A DNA stretch of 64,000 nucleotides from an uncultured Poribacteria bacterium (GCA_951812525.1 OX638316.1:964653-1028652), one strand, 5' to 3'; shown: positions 10,717 to 63,849, numbered from the stretch's first letter. Notes: a model not told the origin generated them from the sequence alone. Program-made: numbers and translations.

Positions 10717-10745
10717 TTGACAAACATATATGCGGAGGGTATAAT
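10717..10745 (+). promoter_or_regulatory. 16S rRNA promoter
   Basis: Perfect TTGACA-17bp-TATAAT with AT-rich UP region; boxA-like TGTTCTTTGAAA at ~10777. Confidence 0.8.
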
Positions 10746-10865
10746 TAACATTACCTTTCAACAAGGAAGGTGAATTTGTTCTTTGAAAGTTAAATAGTGA
10801 ACGTGACGTGCCAATTTAATAGCTTGTGAGTACACTTCAATTTATTTGAAGGTGTGCTTCAATAC

Positions 10866-12427
<1,562 letters not shown>

Positions 12428-12656
12428 CATTAACAAATGGATTCTCACACAATTCATCTGTTCAAACGCTCTTTACCTTTTACAGACACGCACAAAAACT
12501 ATTTAGCTTTCAAGAACATTTTCTTACAAGATACAGCAATCACTTTGCTATACTCACCAATCCATTTCCCCTTTATTTTTCAATCTAACTCACCTTACCC
12601 AGCTTGTGATTTAAGACTGGCTCTCTCTGCCTTCTTATCTCCTTTAACAAATTAAC

Positions 12657-12685
12657 TTGACAAACCCTTTTTCAGGATGTATAAT
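12657..12685 (+). promoter_or_regulatory. promoter for tRNA-Ile (copy of the 16S promoter cassette)
   Basis: TTGACA-17bp-TATAAT with the same flanks as 10717 (ACAAATTAA..TTGACAAAC, GTATAATTAACATT). Confidence 0.75.
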
Positions 12686-12736
12686 TAACATTGCTCCTGA
12701 ACAAGAAATATCTCCCTTCTCCAAGACCCCTCTCGT

Positions 12737-12810
12737 GGGCTTATAGCTCAGACGGTTAGAGCGCGCGCCTGATAAGCGCGAGGTCCCTGGTTCGATTCCA
12801 GGTAAGCCCA
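12737..12810 (+). tRNA. tRNA-Ile(GAT)
   Basis: GGGCTTATAGCTCAG...CTGATAA...GGTTCGATTCC...AAGCCCA cloverleaf; CCA not encoded. Confidence 0.95.
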
Positions 12811-59023: not shown

Positions 59024-59142
59024 TTCCCGGCAGCGACCTACTTTCCCACGGGGTTGCCCCCGAAGTATCATCAGCGCTGAAGGGCTTAACTACCGTGTTC
59101 GGGATGGGTACGGGTGGTTCCCCTCCGCTATAGCCACCGGAA
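59024..59142 (-). rRNA. rrf: 5S rRNA
   Basis: CCGGTGGCTATAGCGGAGGGGAACCACCCGTACCCATCCCGAACACGG...AGTAGGTCGCTGCCGG. Confidence 0.95.
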
Positions 59143-59239
59143 AATTGTTCGTCCGGCTCAGTGTAATAGTGTATCTGAGCCGCACCAAGAATATTTGACA
59201 ATTGTATATGTATTGAGGGGTCGGTAGAAAGAAAAGTAA

Positions 59240-62215
<2,976 letters not shown>

Positions 62216-62292
62216 AGGTGATATTATTTCTACCGATTTACCCTCTATATACAATTGTCAAAGAACAACGCCTATTTTTTAGTTATAGGCGA

Positions 62293-62365
62293 TGGAGATG
62301 AGCGGAGTTGAACCGCTGACCTACTGCGTGCAAAGCAGTCGCTCTCCCAACTGAGCTACACCCCC
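62293..62365 (-). tRNA. tRNA-Ala(TGC)
   Basis: GGGGGTGTAGCTCAGTTGGGAGAGCG...TTTGCAC...GGTTCAACTCC; G3:U70; CCA not encoded. Confidence 0.95.
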
Positions 62366-62381
62366 ACGTGGCATGCTTTTA

Positions 62382-62690
62382 AGTATACCACAATCACGAT
62401 ACTAATGTCAAATTTATTTTCAAAAAATCGACCAAGAGAGGATTTGCACCTCTCCTTCGGTTTTTTTAACCGATGCTCCTACTTTTTGAGCGGTTGGTCC
62501 ATAATAGCGAATTTTAAGTATACCCTAAAAATCTGTAAATGTCAAATTTATTTTTCAGAAATTTTCCAAAAAGTTGATTTCGCTGGTTTGCCACTCACAC
62601 GATAGAGTTTAAGTATACTATAAAATTCCAGAAATGTCAAATTTATTTTGCAACAATATGTAGAATATCACAGAAAATGACGTTTGTCAA
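62382..62690 (-). promoter_or_regulatory. four tandem sigma70 promoters upstream of tRNA-Ala/23S/5S
   Basis: TTGACA at 62411, 62545, 62640, 62690, with TATACT/TATACT/TATACT/TATTCT at 17-18 bp spacing. Confidence 0.75.
62428..62500 (-). ncRNA. non-canonical tRNA-like cloverleaf RNA
   Basis: GACCAA/TTGGTC, GCTC/GAGC, TCGGT/ACCGA, GAGAGG-TGCAAAT-CCTCTC stems folded by hand. Confidence 0.6.
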
Positions 62691-62895
62691 AGAGAAATTA
62701 CGATTTTTTCATTTTTATTTTCCTAAACTGCCTCATATGTAGGTAACAATAGCAATCAGCGATCCGCGAGAGTCCCGAATCAGAAATCGCCAGGAGAACT
62801 GAATGGCTACCGAATAGGTTGATTTTGCGATGGTATATAGGATATTATAGGACATGAGAGACGTTGAACTTACTTTTGGAGGAGAAAATCTATTG

Positions 62896-63849
62896 ATGCA
62901 ACATAAATTTTCTTATCTGTTACTACTGGTGTCAAGTCTATTCGCGATGAATGCCTGGAGCATAGGGACTATTTCTTTTACCTCCGATCGAGCCGGGAAT
63001 CTTGACATTTATATCATAGATACAAATGGCGAAAATCTTGCCAATCTAACGAACCACGCAGCTGACGACTATTCACCTACATGGTCGCCGGATGGACGCT
63101 CTGTGGCGTATGTTTCCGAACGGGACGGAAATCCAGAGATTTATGTGATGGAGCTAAATACAAAGGAACAACGACGACTGACAGACCATAAGGCGACTGA
63201 TCTCGATCCCGCTTGGTCCCCAGATGGTCGTTCAATCGCATTCGCATCTAACTTAGCACGCGACCACGCCGCAGATACAGATATCTACACAATGGATGTG
63301 AACGGAAAGAAGGTTCAGAAACTCACAAACAAAGGTGGTAATAATTCAAACCCAACATGGTCGCCGGACGGAGAATGGATCGCATTCCGCTCGACACTGG
63401 ATGGTATTGGCGGCATACATGTGATGACTGCTGATGGTGAAAAACAGCGCGCACTGACGCAGGTGTCTGCTACACATCCGGCTTGGTCCCCTAACGGGAA
63501 ACAGATTTGCTTCTCAAGCGAGAAACTTGCGGGTGTGGCGACACAGACACTGTTCACCGCGGATATTGATGGGAAAAATGTTAAAAAATTGACGGACGGT
63601 ACGCGGGCAAGTGAAGATCCGTCGTGGGCACCCGATGGACAATCAATTGTTTATGTATCCGTGGAAGACGGAAGCCAAATGCTCTACGTTATTAAAATCG
63701 CAGGGGGTGAGCCTCGTCAATTGACGGAGATCGTAGGTTTAGATTTTTCGCCAGCATGGGGACCGACAGCGTTCTCCGTCGCGCCGGGATCAAATACACG
63801 TTTGATGCGATGGGGAGTGTTGAAACGAACAGGACGCGTCAACAGGTGA
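62896..63849 (+). CDS. secreted TolB-like PD40 beta-propeller with degenerate C-terminal WG tail
   Basis: Repeated P.WSPDG motifs, FTSDRAGNLDIY; GGAGGAG RBS; tail FSVAPGSNTRLMRWGVLK. Confidence 0.85.
   Translation: MQHKFSYLLLLVSSLFAMNAWSIGTISFTSDRAGNLDIYIIDTNGENLANLTNHAADDYSPTWSPDGRSVAYVSERDGNPEIYVMELNTKEQRRLTDHKATDLDPAWSPDGRSIAFASNLARDHAADTDIYTMDVNGKKVQKLTNKGGNNSNPTWSPDGEWIAFRSTLDGIGGIHVMTADGEKQRALTQVSATHPAWSPNGKQICFSSEKLAGVATQTLFTADIDGKNVKKLTDGTRASEDPSWAPDGQSIVYVSVEDGSQMLYVIKIAGGEPRQLTEIVGLDFSPAWGPTAFSVAPGSNTRLMRWGVLKRTGRVNR

What the first reader, a model, noticed from the sequence alone, without database searches (positions are those of the whole stretch)
62428..62500. Non-canonical tRNA-like RNA (6/6 acceptor/T-stem, poly-A anticodon loop) with its own promoter in the 23S leader
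Seen on minus: G-GACCAA-CC-GCTC-AAAAAGTAG-GAGC-A-TCGGT-TAAAAAA-ACCGA-AG-GAGAGG-TGCAAAT-CCTCTC-TTGGTC-GA-TTTTTT. All four stems pair perfectly in cloverleaf order over 73 nt. It begins ~10 nt after the predicted TSS of a TTGACA-17-TATACT promoter and sits where tRNA-Ile would precede tRNA-Ala. It is not canonical: 6-bp acceptor + 6-bp T stem (still 12 bp stacked), no U8, no D-loop GG, T-loop UGCAAAU, no U33, AAA at the anticodon position, 2-nt variable loop. Intact pairing despite loss of invariant bases argues against simple decay. Inference: a structural tRNA mimic, for example an RNase P/Z processing signal for the split operon, a decoy for anticodon nucleases, or a regulatory RNA.
Basis: partly seen in the sequence, partly recalled or inferred. 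Interest (0 to 1): 0.75.

Follow-up and report, generated by a model that had tools for sequence, protein, structure and literature searches.

The report
Conserved tRNA-like module in rRNA leader
A decayed copy of what was most likely a tryptophan tRNA gene sits just upstream of the 23S rRNA operon in one family of sponge-associated Poribacteria, still folds as a cloverleaf, has its own promoter, and most likely acts as a self-folding, cuttable spacer, not a decoding tRNA.

Summary
Window 62500-62428 (-) folds into the four-arm cloverleaf as its minimum-energy structure (z -4.24). It lies about 10 nt behind a TTGACA-17-TATACT promoter and ahead of a third promoter, tRNA-Ala, 23S and 5S. ARAGORN and Rfam do not call it a tRNA.

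It is not a chance fold. 43 of 65 same-genus genomes carry it at 68 bits or more, and a sister genus carries it too. In 50 copies, 12 of 20 pairs show changes on both sides, which 0 of 500 shuffles reach.

It is closest to tRNA-Trp, not tRNA-Ile. One relative keeps a UCCAAAA anticodon loop and has two copies between tRNA-Ile and tRNA-Ala. The anticodon loop is free in length and sequence, and the whole arm is reduced or missing in 6 copies. Contigs from RNA libraries bridge the element, the next promoter and tRNA-Ala.

Best reading (0.5): a domesticated pseudo-tRNA kept as a self-folding spacer, processed like a tRNA, in a tandem-promoter leader, like the 't-elements' of plant mitochondria. 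This is a new variant of a known kind, of moderate interest.

The parts
62612..62640 (-). Promoter P1 (TTGACA-17-TATACT), the first of three near-identical tandem promoters
   Evidence: 11 of 12 matches. It is near-invariant in 42 same-genus leaders.
62546..62611 (-). P1-P2 spacer. It is poorly conserved and may be an internally deleted copy of the element. It ends in a T-run plus GAAAA.
   Evidence: column identity mostly 0.0-0.4. One RNA-library contig ends in adapter letters at 62593.
62517..62545 (-). Promoter P2, the element's own promoter
   Evidence: A promoter of this form lies 8-11 nt ahead of the model's first position in 48 of 50 copies.
62501..62510 (-). Predicted short 5' leader between the P2 start site and the acceptor stem
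   Evidence: Inferred from the distance to the -10 box. No 5' end was mapped.
62428..62500 (-). tRNA-like element. Acceptor 62499-62494 with 62435-62430; D arm 62491-62475; anticodon arm 62473-62457; T arm 62454-62436 with T loop UGCAAAU.
   Evidence: Covariation. Model R1 scores it 96.2 bits. Not called by ARAGORN or Rfam.
62422..62427 (-). T6 run two bases after the acceptor stem. It may be a tRNA-type AU-rich trailer, a weak terminator tract or the upstream A/T element of P3.
   Evidence: A T-run of 4 or more is present in 47 of 50 copies and absent in G075. RNA-library contigs run across it.
62382..62411 (-). Promoter P3 (TTGACA-18-TATACT with TG), directly ahead of tRNA-Ala
   Evidence: A downstream promoter is found in 50 of 50 copies.
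62291..62366 (-). tRNA-Ala(UGC), a canonical tRNA
   Evidence: Rfam gives 67.6 bits.
62255..62290 (-). Hairpin (62290-62269) and boxA-like tgttctttgacaa (62267-62255) between tRNA-Ala and 23S
   Evidence: Read and near-invariant. The boxA label is my own reading from general knowledge of rrn antitermination.
59025..62215 (-). 23S rRNA (59240-62215) and 5S rRNA (59025-59141)
10866..12810 (+). The other half of the split operon: 16S (10866-12419), then an own promoter (12657-12685) and tRNA-Ile(GAU) (12737-12810)
   Evidence: There is a single 16S in the genome.

Best explanation
The element is a domesticated pseudo-tRNA. A copy of a tRNA gene, most likely tRNA-Trp, came to lie in the rRNA spacer ahead of tRNA-Ala in an ancestor of two genera of one Poribacteria family. 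It lost decoding: the anticodon loop decayed, and G18G19, U33 and U55 are gone. The cloverleaf shape was kept by selection, above all the acceptor/T-arm stack and the D arm.

It is transcribed from its own rRNA-type promoter P2, and from P1 upstream. The transcript runs on through the T-run and promoter P3 into tRNA-Ala-23S-5S. I infer that the fold acts in cis as a compact, self-contained unit. It keeps the long, highly transcribed leader from mispairing with tRNA-Ala. It is cut out like a spacer tRNA: by RNase P at its 5' side, and by an endonuclease in the AU-rich trailer at its 3' side.

Shown: existence, conservation, covariation, likeness to tRNA-Trp, the conserved own promoter, and contigs from RNA libraries that bridge the element to tRNA-Ala.

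Inferred: the cleavages, and the benefit to the cell.
For: (1) Real and conserved. Model R1 finds it at 68-104 bits in 43 of 65 genomes of the genus. Forms without the anticodon arm occur in 3 more: G047, G058, G069. It is in both genomes of sister genus g10, G116 and G101.

(2) Structure under selection. On 50 copies (49 distinct rows), 91.7% of cells pair. 12 of 20 pairs have changes on both sides, in 69 cells. The shuffled mean is 5.8 pairs and 24.6 cells, and 0 of 500 shuffles reach the observed values. With partners slid by 1-3 columns, at most 6 pairs covary and at most 51% of cells pair. 5 of 6 acceptor pairs and 3 of 4 D-stem pairs covary. The MAFFT alignment, which was not fitted to the structure, points the same way: 6 pairs against 2.6, 0 of 500.

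(3) More conserved than neutral neighbours. In 42 leaders the D 3' strand, anticodon stem and T arm have column identity about 0.9. The P1-P2 spacer and the 5' leader are at 0.0-0.4.

(4) The acceptor sequence is free while its shape is kept. The first pair is G-C in 28 rows and U-A in 14. That fits enzymes that read shape.

(5) The anticodon arm is dispensable. The loop is 4-9 nt. The arm is missing in G058, G047, G069 and two G003 copies, and reduced to 6 nt in G101. RNase P-type recognition needs the acceptor/T stack and elbow, not that arm (general knowledge).

(6) A short 5' leader behind a conserved promoter in 48 of 50 copies.

(7) RNase P RNA is present in the genome at 296 bits.

(8) Contigs in two RNA libraries bridge the parts. 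X1 record 5 covers 62344-62593. X1 records 7 and 8 cover 62346-62426 and run on into a relative's element. X7 record 20 covers 62297-62436 and runs on likewise.

(9) Precedent. The tRNA-like t-elements of plant mitochondria direct RNase P and RNase Z cuts (PMC1920247, passages).
Against: tRNA-Ala itself already gives an RNase P site that would remove any leader, so the need for a second tRNA-shaped unit is not obvious.

The element is absent from the tRNA-Ala leader in G024, G006 and G004, where tandem promoters remain. It is also absent at that locus in the three genus-g9 genomes examined, where a short hairpin holds the slot. So it is dispensable over evolutionary time.

The anticodon stem and T arm are conserved in sequence, not only in pairing. 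That is more than shape recognition needs and could point to a specific binding partner.

No RNA ends were mapped.

The RNase Z family model is not met in this genome: best 81 bits against a cut-off of 293. The 3' nuclease is therefore unknown.

RNAalifold on the MAFFT alignment predicts the D, anticodon and T arms but not the acceptor stem.
Confidence: 0.5

Rival explanations
1. It is a stand-alone, trans-acting tRNA-like small RNA. P2 is its dedicated promoter, and the acceptor stem plus U-run ends a share of the transcripts. The processed RNA of about 73 nt mimics the upper half of a tRNA and binds or titrates a tRNA-handling factor, in step with rRNA synthesis.
For: It has its own conserved promoter in 48 of 50 copies, and the spacer sequence of P2 is conserved apart from that of P3. 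A T-run of 4 or more follows in 47 of 50 copies. The anticodon stem, the D 3' strand and the T arm, including the UGC of the T loop, are conserved in sequence. The same UGC/UGU change marks staphylococcal tRNAGly species that stay out of translation (PMC7826273, passages). A tRNA-like RNA with a Trp anticodon acts as a regulator in Bacillus cereus (PMC3399842, passages).
Against: RNA-library contigs run across the T-run into P3 and tRNA-Ala. The T-run is missing in G075. The U-tract starts 2 nt after a 6-bp stem of 50% G+C that closes a multiloop, which is a poor intrinsic terminator. The element has been lost in several lineages. No target is known. The free acceptor sequence argues against charging by a specific synthetase.
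Confidence: 0.2
2. It is a relic without function. A duplicated tRNA gene is decaying between tandem promoters. It hitch-hikes on selection for extra promoters, and its apparent structural conservation reflects shared ancestry.
For: It is lost, or lacks an arm, in many lineages. Copy number varies: two identical copies in G116, and two in one contig of G003. Tandem promoters exist without it in g9 and in G024. It is flanked by direct promoter repeats that would favour gain and loss by recombination. Shuffle controls overstate support among kin (the caveat printed).
Against: 12 of 20 pairs have double-sided changes, in 69 cells. The neighbouring spacer has diverged to identity 0.0-0.4 while blocks of the element stay at about 0.9. 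The element has persisted across two genera. The slid-partner control, which keeps relatedness, gives at most 6 pairs.
Confidence: 0.15
3. It is a transcriptional control element. The folded element plus U-run acts as an attenuator or insulator. It either limits read-through from P1/P2 into P3 (avoiding promoter occlusion), or stands in for the hairpin ahead of a boxA-like antitermination site.
For: The terminator-like scan lists the T-arm hairpin with its tail. In genus g9 the same slot holds a hairpin followed by gttctttgaaaa, and the element's trailer gattttttgaaaa resembles that. An alternative extended T hairpin is possible: 90.4% of its cells pair.
Against: Contigs bridge the site. The two extra pairs of the alternative hairpin show 0 double-sided changes, while the competing acceptor pair shows 19. 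A plain hairpin would do the job, so the conserved D arm and four-way junction are left unexplained.
Confidence: 0.1
4. It is a working tRNA, or an assembly error of one.
For: Cloverleaf order; the genome's other tRNA genes also lack an encoded CCA.
Against: It is not called by ARAGORN or by Rfam at E<=10. No copy is called in the 15 relatives' loci scanned. The anticodon loop is 4-9 nt or absent. A DNA contig confirms the sequence. The genome has its own tRNA-Trp.
Confidence: 0.01

Closest known systems
t-elements of plant mitochondria, tRNA-like processing signals (Forner et al. 2007, PMC1920247; I read passages)
   Same: A non-canonical cloverleaf with a well-kept T arm, embedded in a longer transcript. 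It does not decode. It is thought to be recognised by the tRNA end-processing enzymes.
   Different: t-elements are organellar and flank mRNAs. They keep the canonical T-arm motif, whereas here U55 is G in all but one or two copies. They have no promoter of their own. No homology is implied. Cleavage at the Poribacteria element has not been tested.
Spacer tRNAs (tRNA-Ile, tRNA-Ala) of bacterial rrn operons (textbook knowledge)
   Same: Position in the 16S-23S spacer, as in G116. Co-transcription with rRNA. Excision by tRNA-processing enzymes separates the rRNA precursors.
   Different: Those are working tRNAs. This element has no usable anticodon, a 6-bp acceptor stem with a terminal mismatch, and its own promoter.
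tRNA-Other of Bacillus cereus, a pseudo-tRNA with a regulatory role (Rogers et al. 2012, PMC3399842; I read passages)
   Same: A tRNA-like RNA related to tRNA-Trp that does not serve translation.
   Different: tRNA-Other keeps a Trp anticodon, and a role in T-box control of trpS1 was tested. It flanks a genomic island. Here the anticodon is lost and the gene lies in the rRNA leader. No T-box link was tested.
Non-proteogenic tRNAGly of staphylococci (Rietmeyer et al. 2020, PMC7826273; I read passages)
   Same: TGC or TGT in place of TTC in the T loop, and altered D and T loops, which go with poor use by EF-Tu and the ribosome.
   Different: Those tRNAs keep a working anticodon and are charged by GlyRS as amino-acid donors. 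Here the anticodon arm is dispensable and the acceptor sequence is not conserved.
tRNA-linked repeats, and promoter-plus-partial-tRNA modules upstream of tRNA genes (earlier scan notes e1-2103262 and e1-3692605; unchecked)
   Same: Tandem modules of a promoter-like box plus tRNA-derived sequence ahead of a real tRNA gene.
   Different: Those are partial tRNA copies (5' halves or front parts). This is a full four-arm fold with covariation across two genera.

Membership tests
tRNA (Rfam RF00005; ARAGORN) | Reaches the family's covariance-model gathering score (29 bits), or is called by a tRNA finder | tested here: not met
   No RF00005 match at E<=10 on 62380-62800. ARAGORN calls only tRNA-Ala. 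No element copy is called in 15 relatives' loci.
tRNA (Rfam RF00005; ARAGORN) | 7-nt anticodon loop with U33 and a conserved anticodon | tested here: not met
   The loop is UAAAAAA here. It is 4-9 nt with free sequence in relatives, and the arm is missing or reduced in 6 copies.
tRNA (Rfam RF00005; ARAGORN) | Invariant elbow bases: G18G19 in the D loop and U54-U55-C56 in the T loop | tested here: not met
   The D loop has no GG. The T loop reads UGC in 49 of the 50 aligned copies and UUC only in G101. The G069 copy, outside that alignment, reads CGC.
tRNA (Rfam RF00005; ARAGORN) | Four helices in cloverleaf order, kept by compensatory change | tested here: met
tRNA-Trp descent (origin, not function) | Closer to tRNA-Trp than to any other tRNA of the genome | tested here: met
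   In G000, R1's only other match at E<=0.01 is tRNA-Trp, at 43 bits. In pairwise alignment, 35 of 50 copies are closest to tRNA-Trp among 47 tRNAs; the other 15 are closest to Arg, Met, Thr or Phe. G116's loop is UCCAAAA against CUCCAAA in tRNA-Trp. This makes the origin likely, not proven.
t-element-like processing signal | A tRNA-like fold embedded in a longer transcript | tested here: inconclusive
   Contigs of two RNA libraries bridge the element, P3 and tRNA-Ala. Contigs do not prove a single transcript, and DNA carry-over was not excluded.
t-element-like processing signal | RNA ends that coincide with the RNase P and 3'-nuclease sites of the fold | not testable with these tools
   Only contigs were on hand, and they show no ends.
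Intrinsic (Rho-independent) terminator | A G+C-rich hairpin directly followed by a U-tract that ends transcripts | tested here: inconclusive
   The scan lists the T-arm hairpin, but the T-run starts 6 nt after it (2 nt after the acceptor stem). RNA-library contigs cross it. The T-run is absent in G075.
B. cereus tRNA-Other type regulator | A Trp anticodon that can be read by a T-box specifier | tested here: not met
   No CCA anticodon in G000 or in most copies. T-boxes were not searched for.
Non-proteogenic aminoacyl carrier tRNA (staphylococcal tRNAGly type) | Keeps synthetase identity elements (anticodon and acceptor) while the T loop is altered | tested here: not met
   The T loop UGC is met. 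The anticodon is lost, and the acceptor pairs and the base after the stem vary freely.

The most novel reading that the evidence does not exclude
The element is a trans-acting 'half-tRNA' decoy made from a growth-rate-type rRNA promoter. After excision, its conserved acceptor/T/D upper half mimics uncharged tRNA. That upper half carries the invariant UGC T loop, also seen in staphylococcal tRNAs that avoid the ribosome. The RNA would bind a tRNA-handling protein or RNA, such as RNase P, the CCA-adding enzyme, a tRNA-targeting toxin or a ribosomal tRNA site. In this way tRNA metabolism or defence would be tied to rRNA synthesis in a bacterium with a single rRNA operon.
Probability: 0.15. Interest if true: 0.75.

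Novelty: new variant of a known kind. Interest (0 to 1): 0.5.

Why it matters
The finding gives a dated, multi-genome series for the decay of a tRNA gene. The series runs from a form close to tRNA-Trp in G116, through a cloverleaf with a free anticodon loop, to a three-arm form without the anticodon arm. It shows which parts of a tRNA remain under selection once decoding is lost: the acceptor/T stack, the D arm and C56, but not the anticodon arm. That is what the substrate rules of RNase P predict.

If the processing role holds, it would be a bacterial counterpart of the mitochondrial t-elements. It would also show how rRNA leaders with several promoters are kept tidy in organisms with one split rRNA operon.

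For annotation, it is a family-specific non-coding RNA, about 70-90 nt long, that no current tool or Rfam family reports.

Nothing like it turned up in the paper searches. That library holds open-access papers only.

Tried and rejected
- Rfam at E<=10 gave only weak chance-level matches: patAB 21 bits against a gathering score of 92, LOOT, snoRNAs.
- No second copy exists in the window's own genome. Apart from the locus itself, only short promoter-like matches turned up.
- The exact-pattern scan of 185,579 species' genomes gave 33 stretches. 30 are records titled Poribacteria. The 3 others (Paenibacillus, a Spirochaetes MAG, an Actinomycetes MAG) have no R1 match above 9.1 bits and no tRNA. 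I take them as chance, with about 0.7 expected by my own estimate.
- The order-wide model search (151 genomes) found nothing above tRNA level in families f2, f3 and f4 (47 genomes) or in genus g9 (38 genomes). Those matches of 44-55 bits and 87-90 nt look like tRNA-Trp. I confirmed that only for G000 and G059.
- At the tRNA-Ala loci of 3 g9 genomes, one f3 genome and one f2 genome, R1 with filters off matched only tRNA-Ala and tRNA-Ile.
- RNAalifold on the MAFFT alignment did not return the acceptor stem. It extended the T hairpin instead. That alternative has no double-sided change in its two extra pairs.
- The RNase Z family model is not met, so I do not name RNase Z as the 3' nuclease.
- RNA runs: X9 covers only tRNA-Ala. 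In X1 no contig covers 62664-62760, and 62592-62663 has at most a trace.
- The single X1 contig end with adapter-like letters at 62593 is too thin to call an RNA 5' end. The identification of those letters as adapter is recalled.
- The amino-acid carrier idea is rejected because the acceptor sequence is free. The anticodon-nuclease decoy idea is rejected because the anticodon arm is the least conserved part.
- Earlier scan notes by place and by sequence gave nothing.

Full report
WHAT IS THERE. On the minus strand the window holds, in order:
- a weaker promoter-like site (62690-62662);
- promoter P1 (62640-62612);
- a spacer of about 65 nt;
- promoter P2 (62545-62517);
- the reported element (62500-62428) followed by T6 (62427-62422);
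- promoter P3 (62411-62382);
- tRNA-Ala(UGC) (62366-62291);
- a hairpin and a boxA-like string;
- 23S (62215-59240) and 5S (59141-59025).

The three promoters each match the sigma-70 consensus in 11 of 12 positions and share their A/T-rich upstream stretch. The scan found 8 promoter-like sites in 2 kb, against 3.6 +/- 1.9 in shuffles. The only 16S gene of the genome lies about 50 kb away on the other strand (window 10866-12419). It is followed by a promoter of its own and tRNA-Ile(GAU) (12737-12810). So the operon is split between tRNA-Ile and the element.

Folded without constraints, 62500-62422 gives a four-way junction with the same four arms. Its energy is -27.3 kcal/mol, z -4.24, and 0 of 200 shuffles fold as well. 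It is not a tRNA by any detector. ARAGORN reports only tRNA-Ala. Rfam's tRNA model gives nothing even at E<=10. A DNA-run contig agrees with 62293-62760 letter for letter, though it may come from the assembly's own source.

IT IS CONSERVED AND COVARIES. A DNA search of 24 genomes of the same genus found the whole leader in 17 of them, at 74-90% identity. It found nothing comparable in 16 genomes of three other families. A covariance model built from 18 copies (R1) finds the element at 68-104 bits in 43 of 65 genomes of the genus. In an order-wide sample of 151 genomes, it scores above tRNA level only in this genus and in genus g10 of the same family. An exact-pattern scan of one genome for each of 185,579 species returned 33 stretches. 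30 of them are in records titled Poribacteria, and the other 3 are chance matches.

On 50 copies aligned to the model (49 distinct rows), 91.7% of cells form standard pairs. 12 of 20 pairs show changes on both sides, in 69 cells. Neither value is reached in any of 500 shuffles. Sliding the 3' partners by 1-3 columns gives at most 6 such pairs and at most 51% pairing. The acceptor stem (5 of 6 pairs) and the D stem (3 of 4 pairs) carry most of the covariation. Two caveats apply: this alignment is fitted to the structure, and the sequences are kin. The unfitted MAFFT alignment gives the same direction: 6 pairs against 2.6 +/- 0.8, 0 of 500. RNAalifold on that alignment recovers the D, anticodon and T arms but not the acceptor. 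The alternative it offers, a longer T hairpin, has no double-sided change in its two extra pairs, whereas the competing acceptor pair has 19. A loose end in a sponge metatranscriptome contig shows a further relative with T stem GACAGG/CCUGUC against GAGAGG/CCUCUC here.

Across 42 leaders of the genus, the promoters and tRNA-Ala are almost invariant. The element's D 3' strand, anticodon stem and T arm have column identity about 0.9. Its acceptor stem is at about 0.4-0.6 but stays paired. The P1-P2 spacer and the element's 5' leader are at 0.0-0.4.

WHERE IT CAME FROM. In the window's genome, the model's only other match at E<=0.01 is the single tRNA-Trp(CCA) gene, at 43 bits. Matches of 44-55 bits and 87-90 nt recur in nearly every genome searched. 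I confirmed their identity as tRNA-Trp only in G000 and G059. In pairwise alignment against the 47 tRNAs of the genome, tRNA-Trp is the best match for this copy and for 35 of 50 copies. The other 15 are mostly forms that lack the anticodon arm or have a TGCCAA acceptor, and they fall to Arg, Met, Thr or Phe.

In G116 (genus g10) the operon is still linked: 16S, tRNA-Ile, then two identical promoter-plus-element units, then promoter, tRNA-Ala and 23S. Its element has the anticodon loop UCCAAAA, against CUCCAAA in tRNA-Trp. G101, of the same genus, has a canonical UUCGAUU T loop and an anticodon arm shrunk to 6 nt. So the element is an extra unit between tRNA-Ile and tRNA-Ala. It is probably a tRNA-Trp gene copy, and it is older than the split of the operon in this genus.

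Families f2 and f3 keep the classical 16S-Ile-Ala-23S order, with 8-9 nt between the tRNAs and no internal promoters. Three genomes of genus g9 have a split operon with two or three tandem promoters, and a short hairpin plus boxA-like string where the element would be.

WHAT IS KEPT AND WHAT IS NOT.
Kept:
- a 6-bp acceptor stem with a mismatch where pair 1-72 would be;
- the D arm, with a conserved AG before its 3' strand;
- the core of the T stem;
- the T loop U-G-C-R-A, with G in place of U55 in 49 of the 50 aligned copies. G101 has U. The G069 copy, which is outside that alignment, has CGC.

Not kept:
- The anticodon loop is 4-9 nt with free sequence, rich in A at the 3' side.
- The whole anticodon arm is absent in G058, G047, G069 and two copies in G003.
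- The element is missing from the leader in G024, G006 and G004, which still have tandem promoters.

A promoter of the same form lies 8-11 nt ahead of the model's first position in 48 of 50 copies. A second promoter lies behind in 50 of 50. tRNA-Ala follows within 190 nt in 48 of 50. A T-run of 4 or more follows in 47 of 50. The spacers of P2 and P3 are each conserved in their own right, so these are old promoters kept separately.

RNA. Only contigs of public runs could be laid, so no ends and no levels can be read, and DNA carry-over was not excluded. In a size-fractionated metatranscriptome (X1), a 269-nt contig covers 62344-62593. That span holds the first bases of tRNA-Ala, P3, the T-run, the element and P2. 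Two further contigs cover 62346-62426 and run on into the 3' half of a relative's element. In a sponge metatranscriptome (X7), a 197-nt contig covers 62297-62436 and likewise runs on into a relative's element, and others join P2 to the 5' part of an element. This fits transcription from P1/P2 through the element and the T-run into tRNA-Ala. It argues against an efficient terminator.

HOW IT MOST LIKELY WORKS. I commit to a cis-acting, tRNA-shaped spacer (0.5). It is transcribed at a high rate from rRNA-type promoters. It folds on its own, which keeps about 130 nt of leader from pairing with tRNA-Ala. It is cut out by the tRNA machinery. RNase P RNA is present. The 3' cut would fall in the AU-rich trailer, by an enzyme I cannot name, because the RNase Z model is not met.

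The pattern of constraint fits enzymes that read the shape of the acceptor/T stack and elbow: shape kept, acceptor sequence free, anticodon arm dispensable.

Weak points:
- tRNA-Ala already supplies an RNase P site.
- The element has been lost repeatedly.
- The sequence-level conservation of the anticodon stem and T arm hints at a specific partner.

Rivals are a trans-acting tRNA-like small RNA (0.2), a relic without function (0.15), a transcriptional attenuator or antitermination hairpin (0.1), and a working tRNA or assembly error (0.01).

COMPARISON WITH WHAT IS KNOWN.
- It works most like the t-elements of plant mitochondria. These are non-canonical cloverleaves with a kept T arm that direct RNase P and RNase Z cuts in longer transcripts (PMC1920247, passages).
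- It also resembles the ordinary spacer tRNAs of rrn operons.
- It shares a likeness to tRNA-Trp and a non-translational status with tRNA-Other of Bacillus cereus, which keeps its Trp anticodon (PMC3399842, passages).
- It shares the UGC T loop with the staphylococcal tRNAGly species that avoid EF-Tu and the ribosome (PMC7826273, passages).
- It is a member of none of these. It fails the defining tests of a tRNA, and it has no Rfam family.

Paper searches for Poribacteria with rRNA operon and tRNA, for pseudo-tRNA or tRNA-like with rRNA operon, and for tRNA-like processing signals returned nothing that describes it (listings only, apart from the three papers above). Two earlier notes of this scan describe promoter-plus-partial-tRNA modules ahead of tRNA genes in other phyla. 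I did not check them.

VERDICT. This is a real, conserved, structured RNA element specific to one family. It is a new variant of the known kind 'tRNA-derived structural element'. Its function is inferred, not shown. Interest 0.5.

Noticed in passing
window 10717-10745 (+), 12657-12685 (+), 62517-62545 (-), 62382-62411 (-): Every stable-RNA gene of the split operon has its own near-consensus promoter with an A/T-rich upstream stretch: 16S, tRNA-Ile, the element and tRNA-Ala. The tRNA-Ile promoter lies inside what used to be the 16S-23S spacer.
   Followed up: partly
window 62255-62290 (-) and 10776-10789 (+): A hairpin plus boxA-like string (tgttctttgacaa) lies after tRNA-Ala and before 23S. 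A similar string (ttgttctttgaaag) lies in the 16S leader. RNA polymerase would therefore meet the antitermination signal only after passing the element and tRNA-Ala.
   Followed up: no
L133, L134, L135 (genus g9), about 100-180 nt upstream of tRNA-Ala: In three genomes of the sister genus g9, a short hairpin followed by gttctttgaaaa sits between tandem promoters, where this genus has the tRNA-like element followed by gattttttgaaaa. The element's trailer may be a decayed boxA-like site.
   Followed up: partly
window 62546-62611 (-): The P1-P2 spacer is poorly conserved, but its ends resemble the element's 5' leader/acceptor start and its 3' trailer. It may be an internally deleted second copy. 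One RNA-library contig ends with adapter-like letters at 62593.
   Followed up: partly
L060 738-959 (G116) and L074 436-629 (G003): The promoter-plus-element unit is tandemly duplicated in some genomes. G116 has two identical copies. G003 has one copy with and one without the anticodon arm. This suggests gain and loss by recombination between the repeated promoters.
   Followed up: partly
G000:C1:4847566-4847637: A second tRNA-Ile(GAU) gene lies far from both rRNA loci.
   Followed up: no
G000 whole genome: The RNase Z family model TIGR02651 is not met (best 81 bits, cut-off 293), although the tRNA genes read here (Ile, Ala, Trp) lack an encoded CCA. The 3' maturation route of tRNAs in this organism is therefore open.
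   Followed up: partly
window 62854-63849 (+): A 331-aa ORF with repeated 'DG...I.F.S.R.G..DIY' units diverges from the rRNA leader. It looks like a TolB/WD40-like beta-propeller by eye. It was not searched.
   Followed up: no
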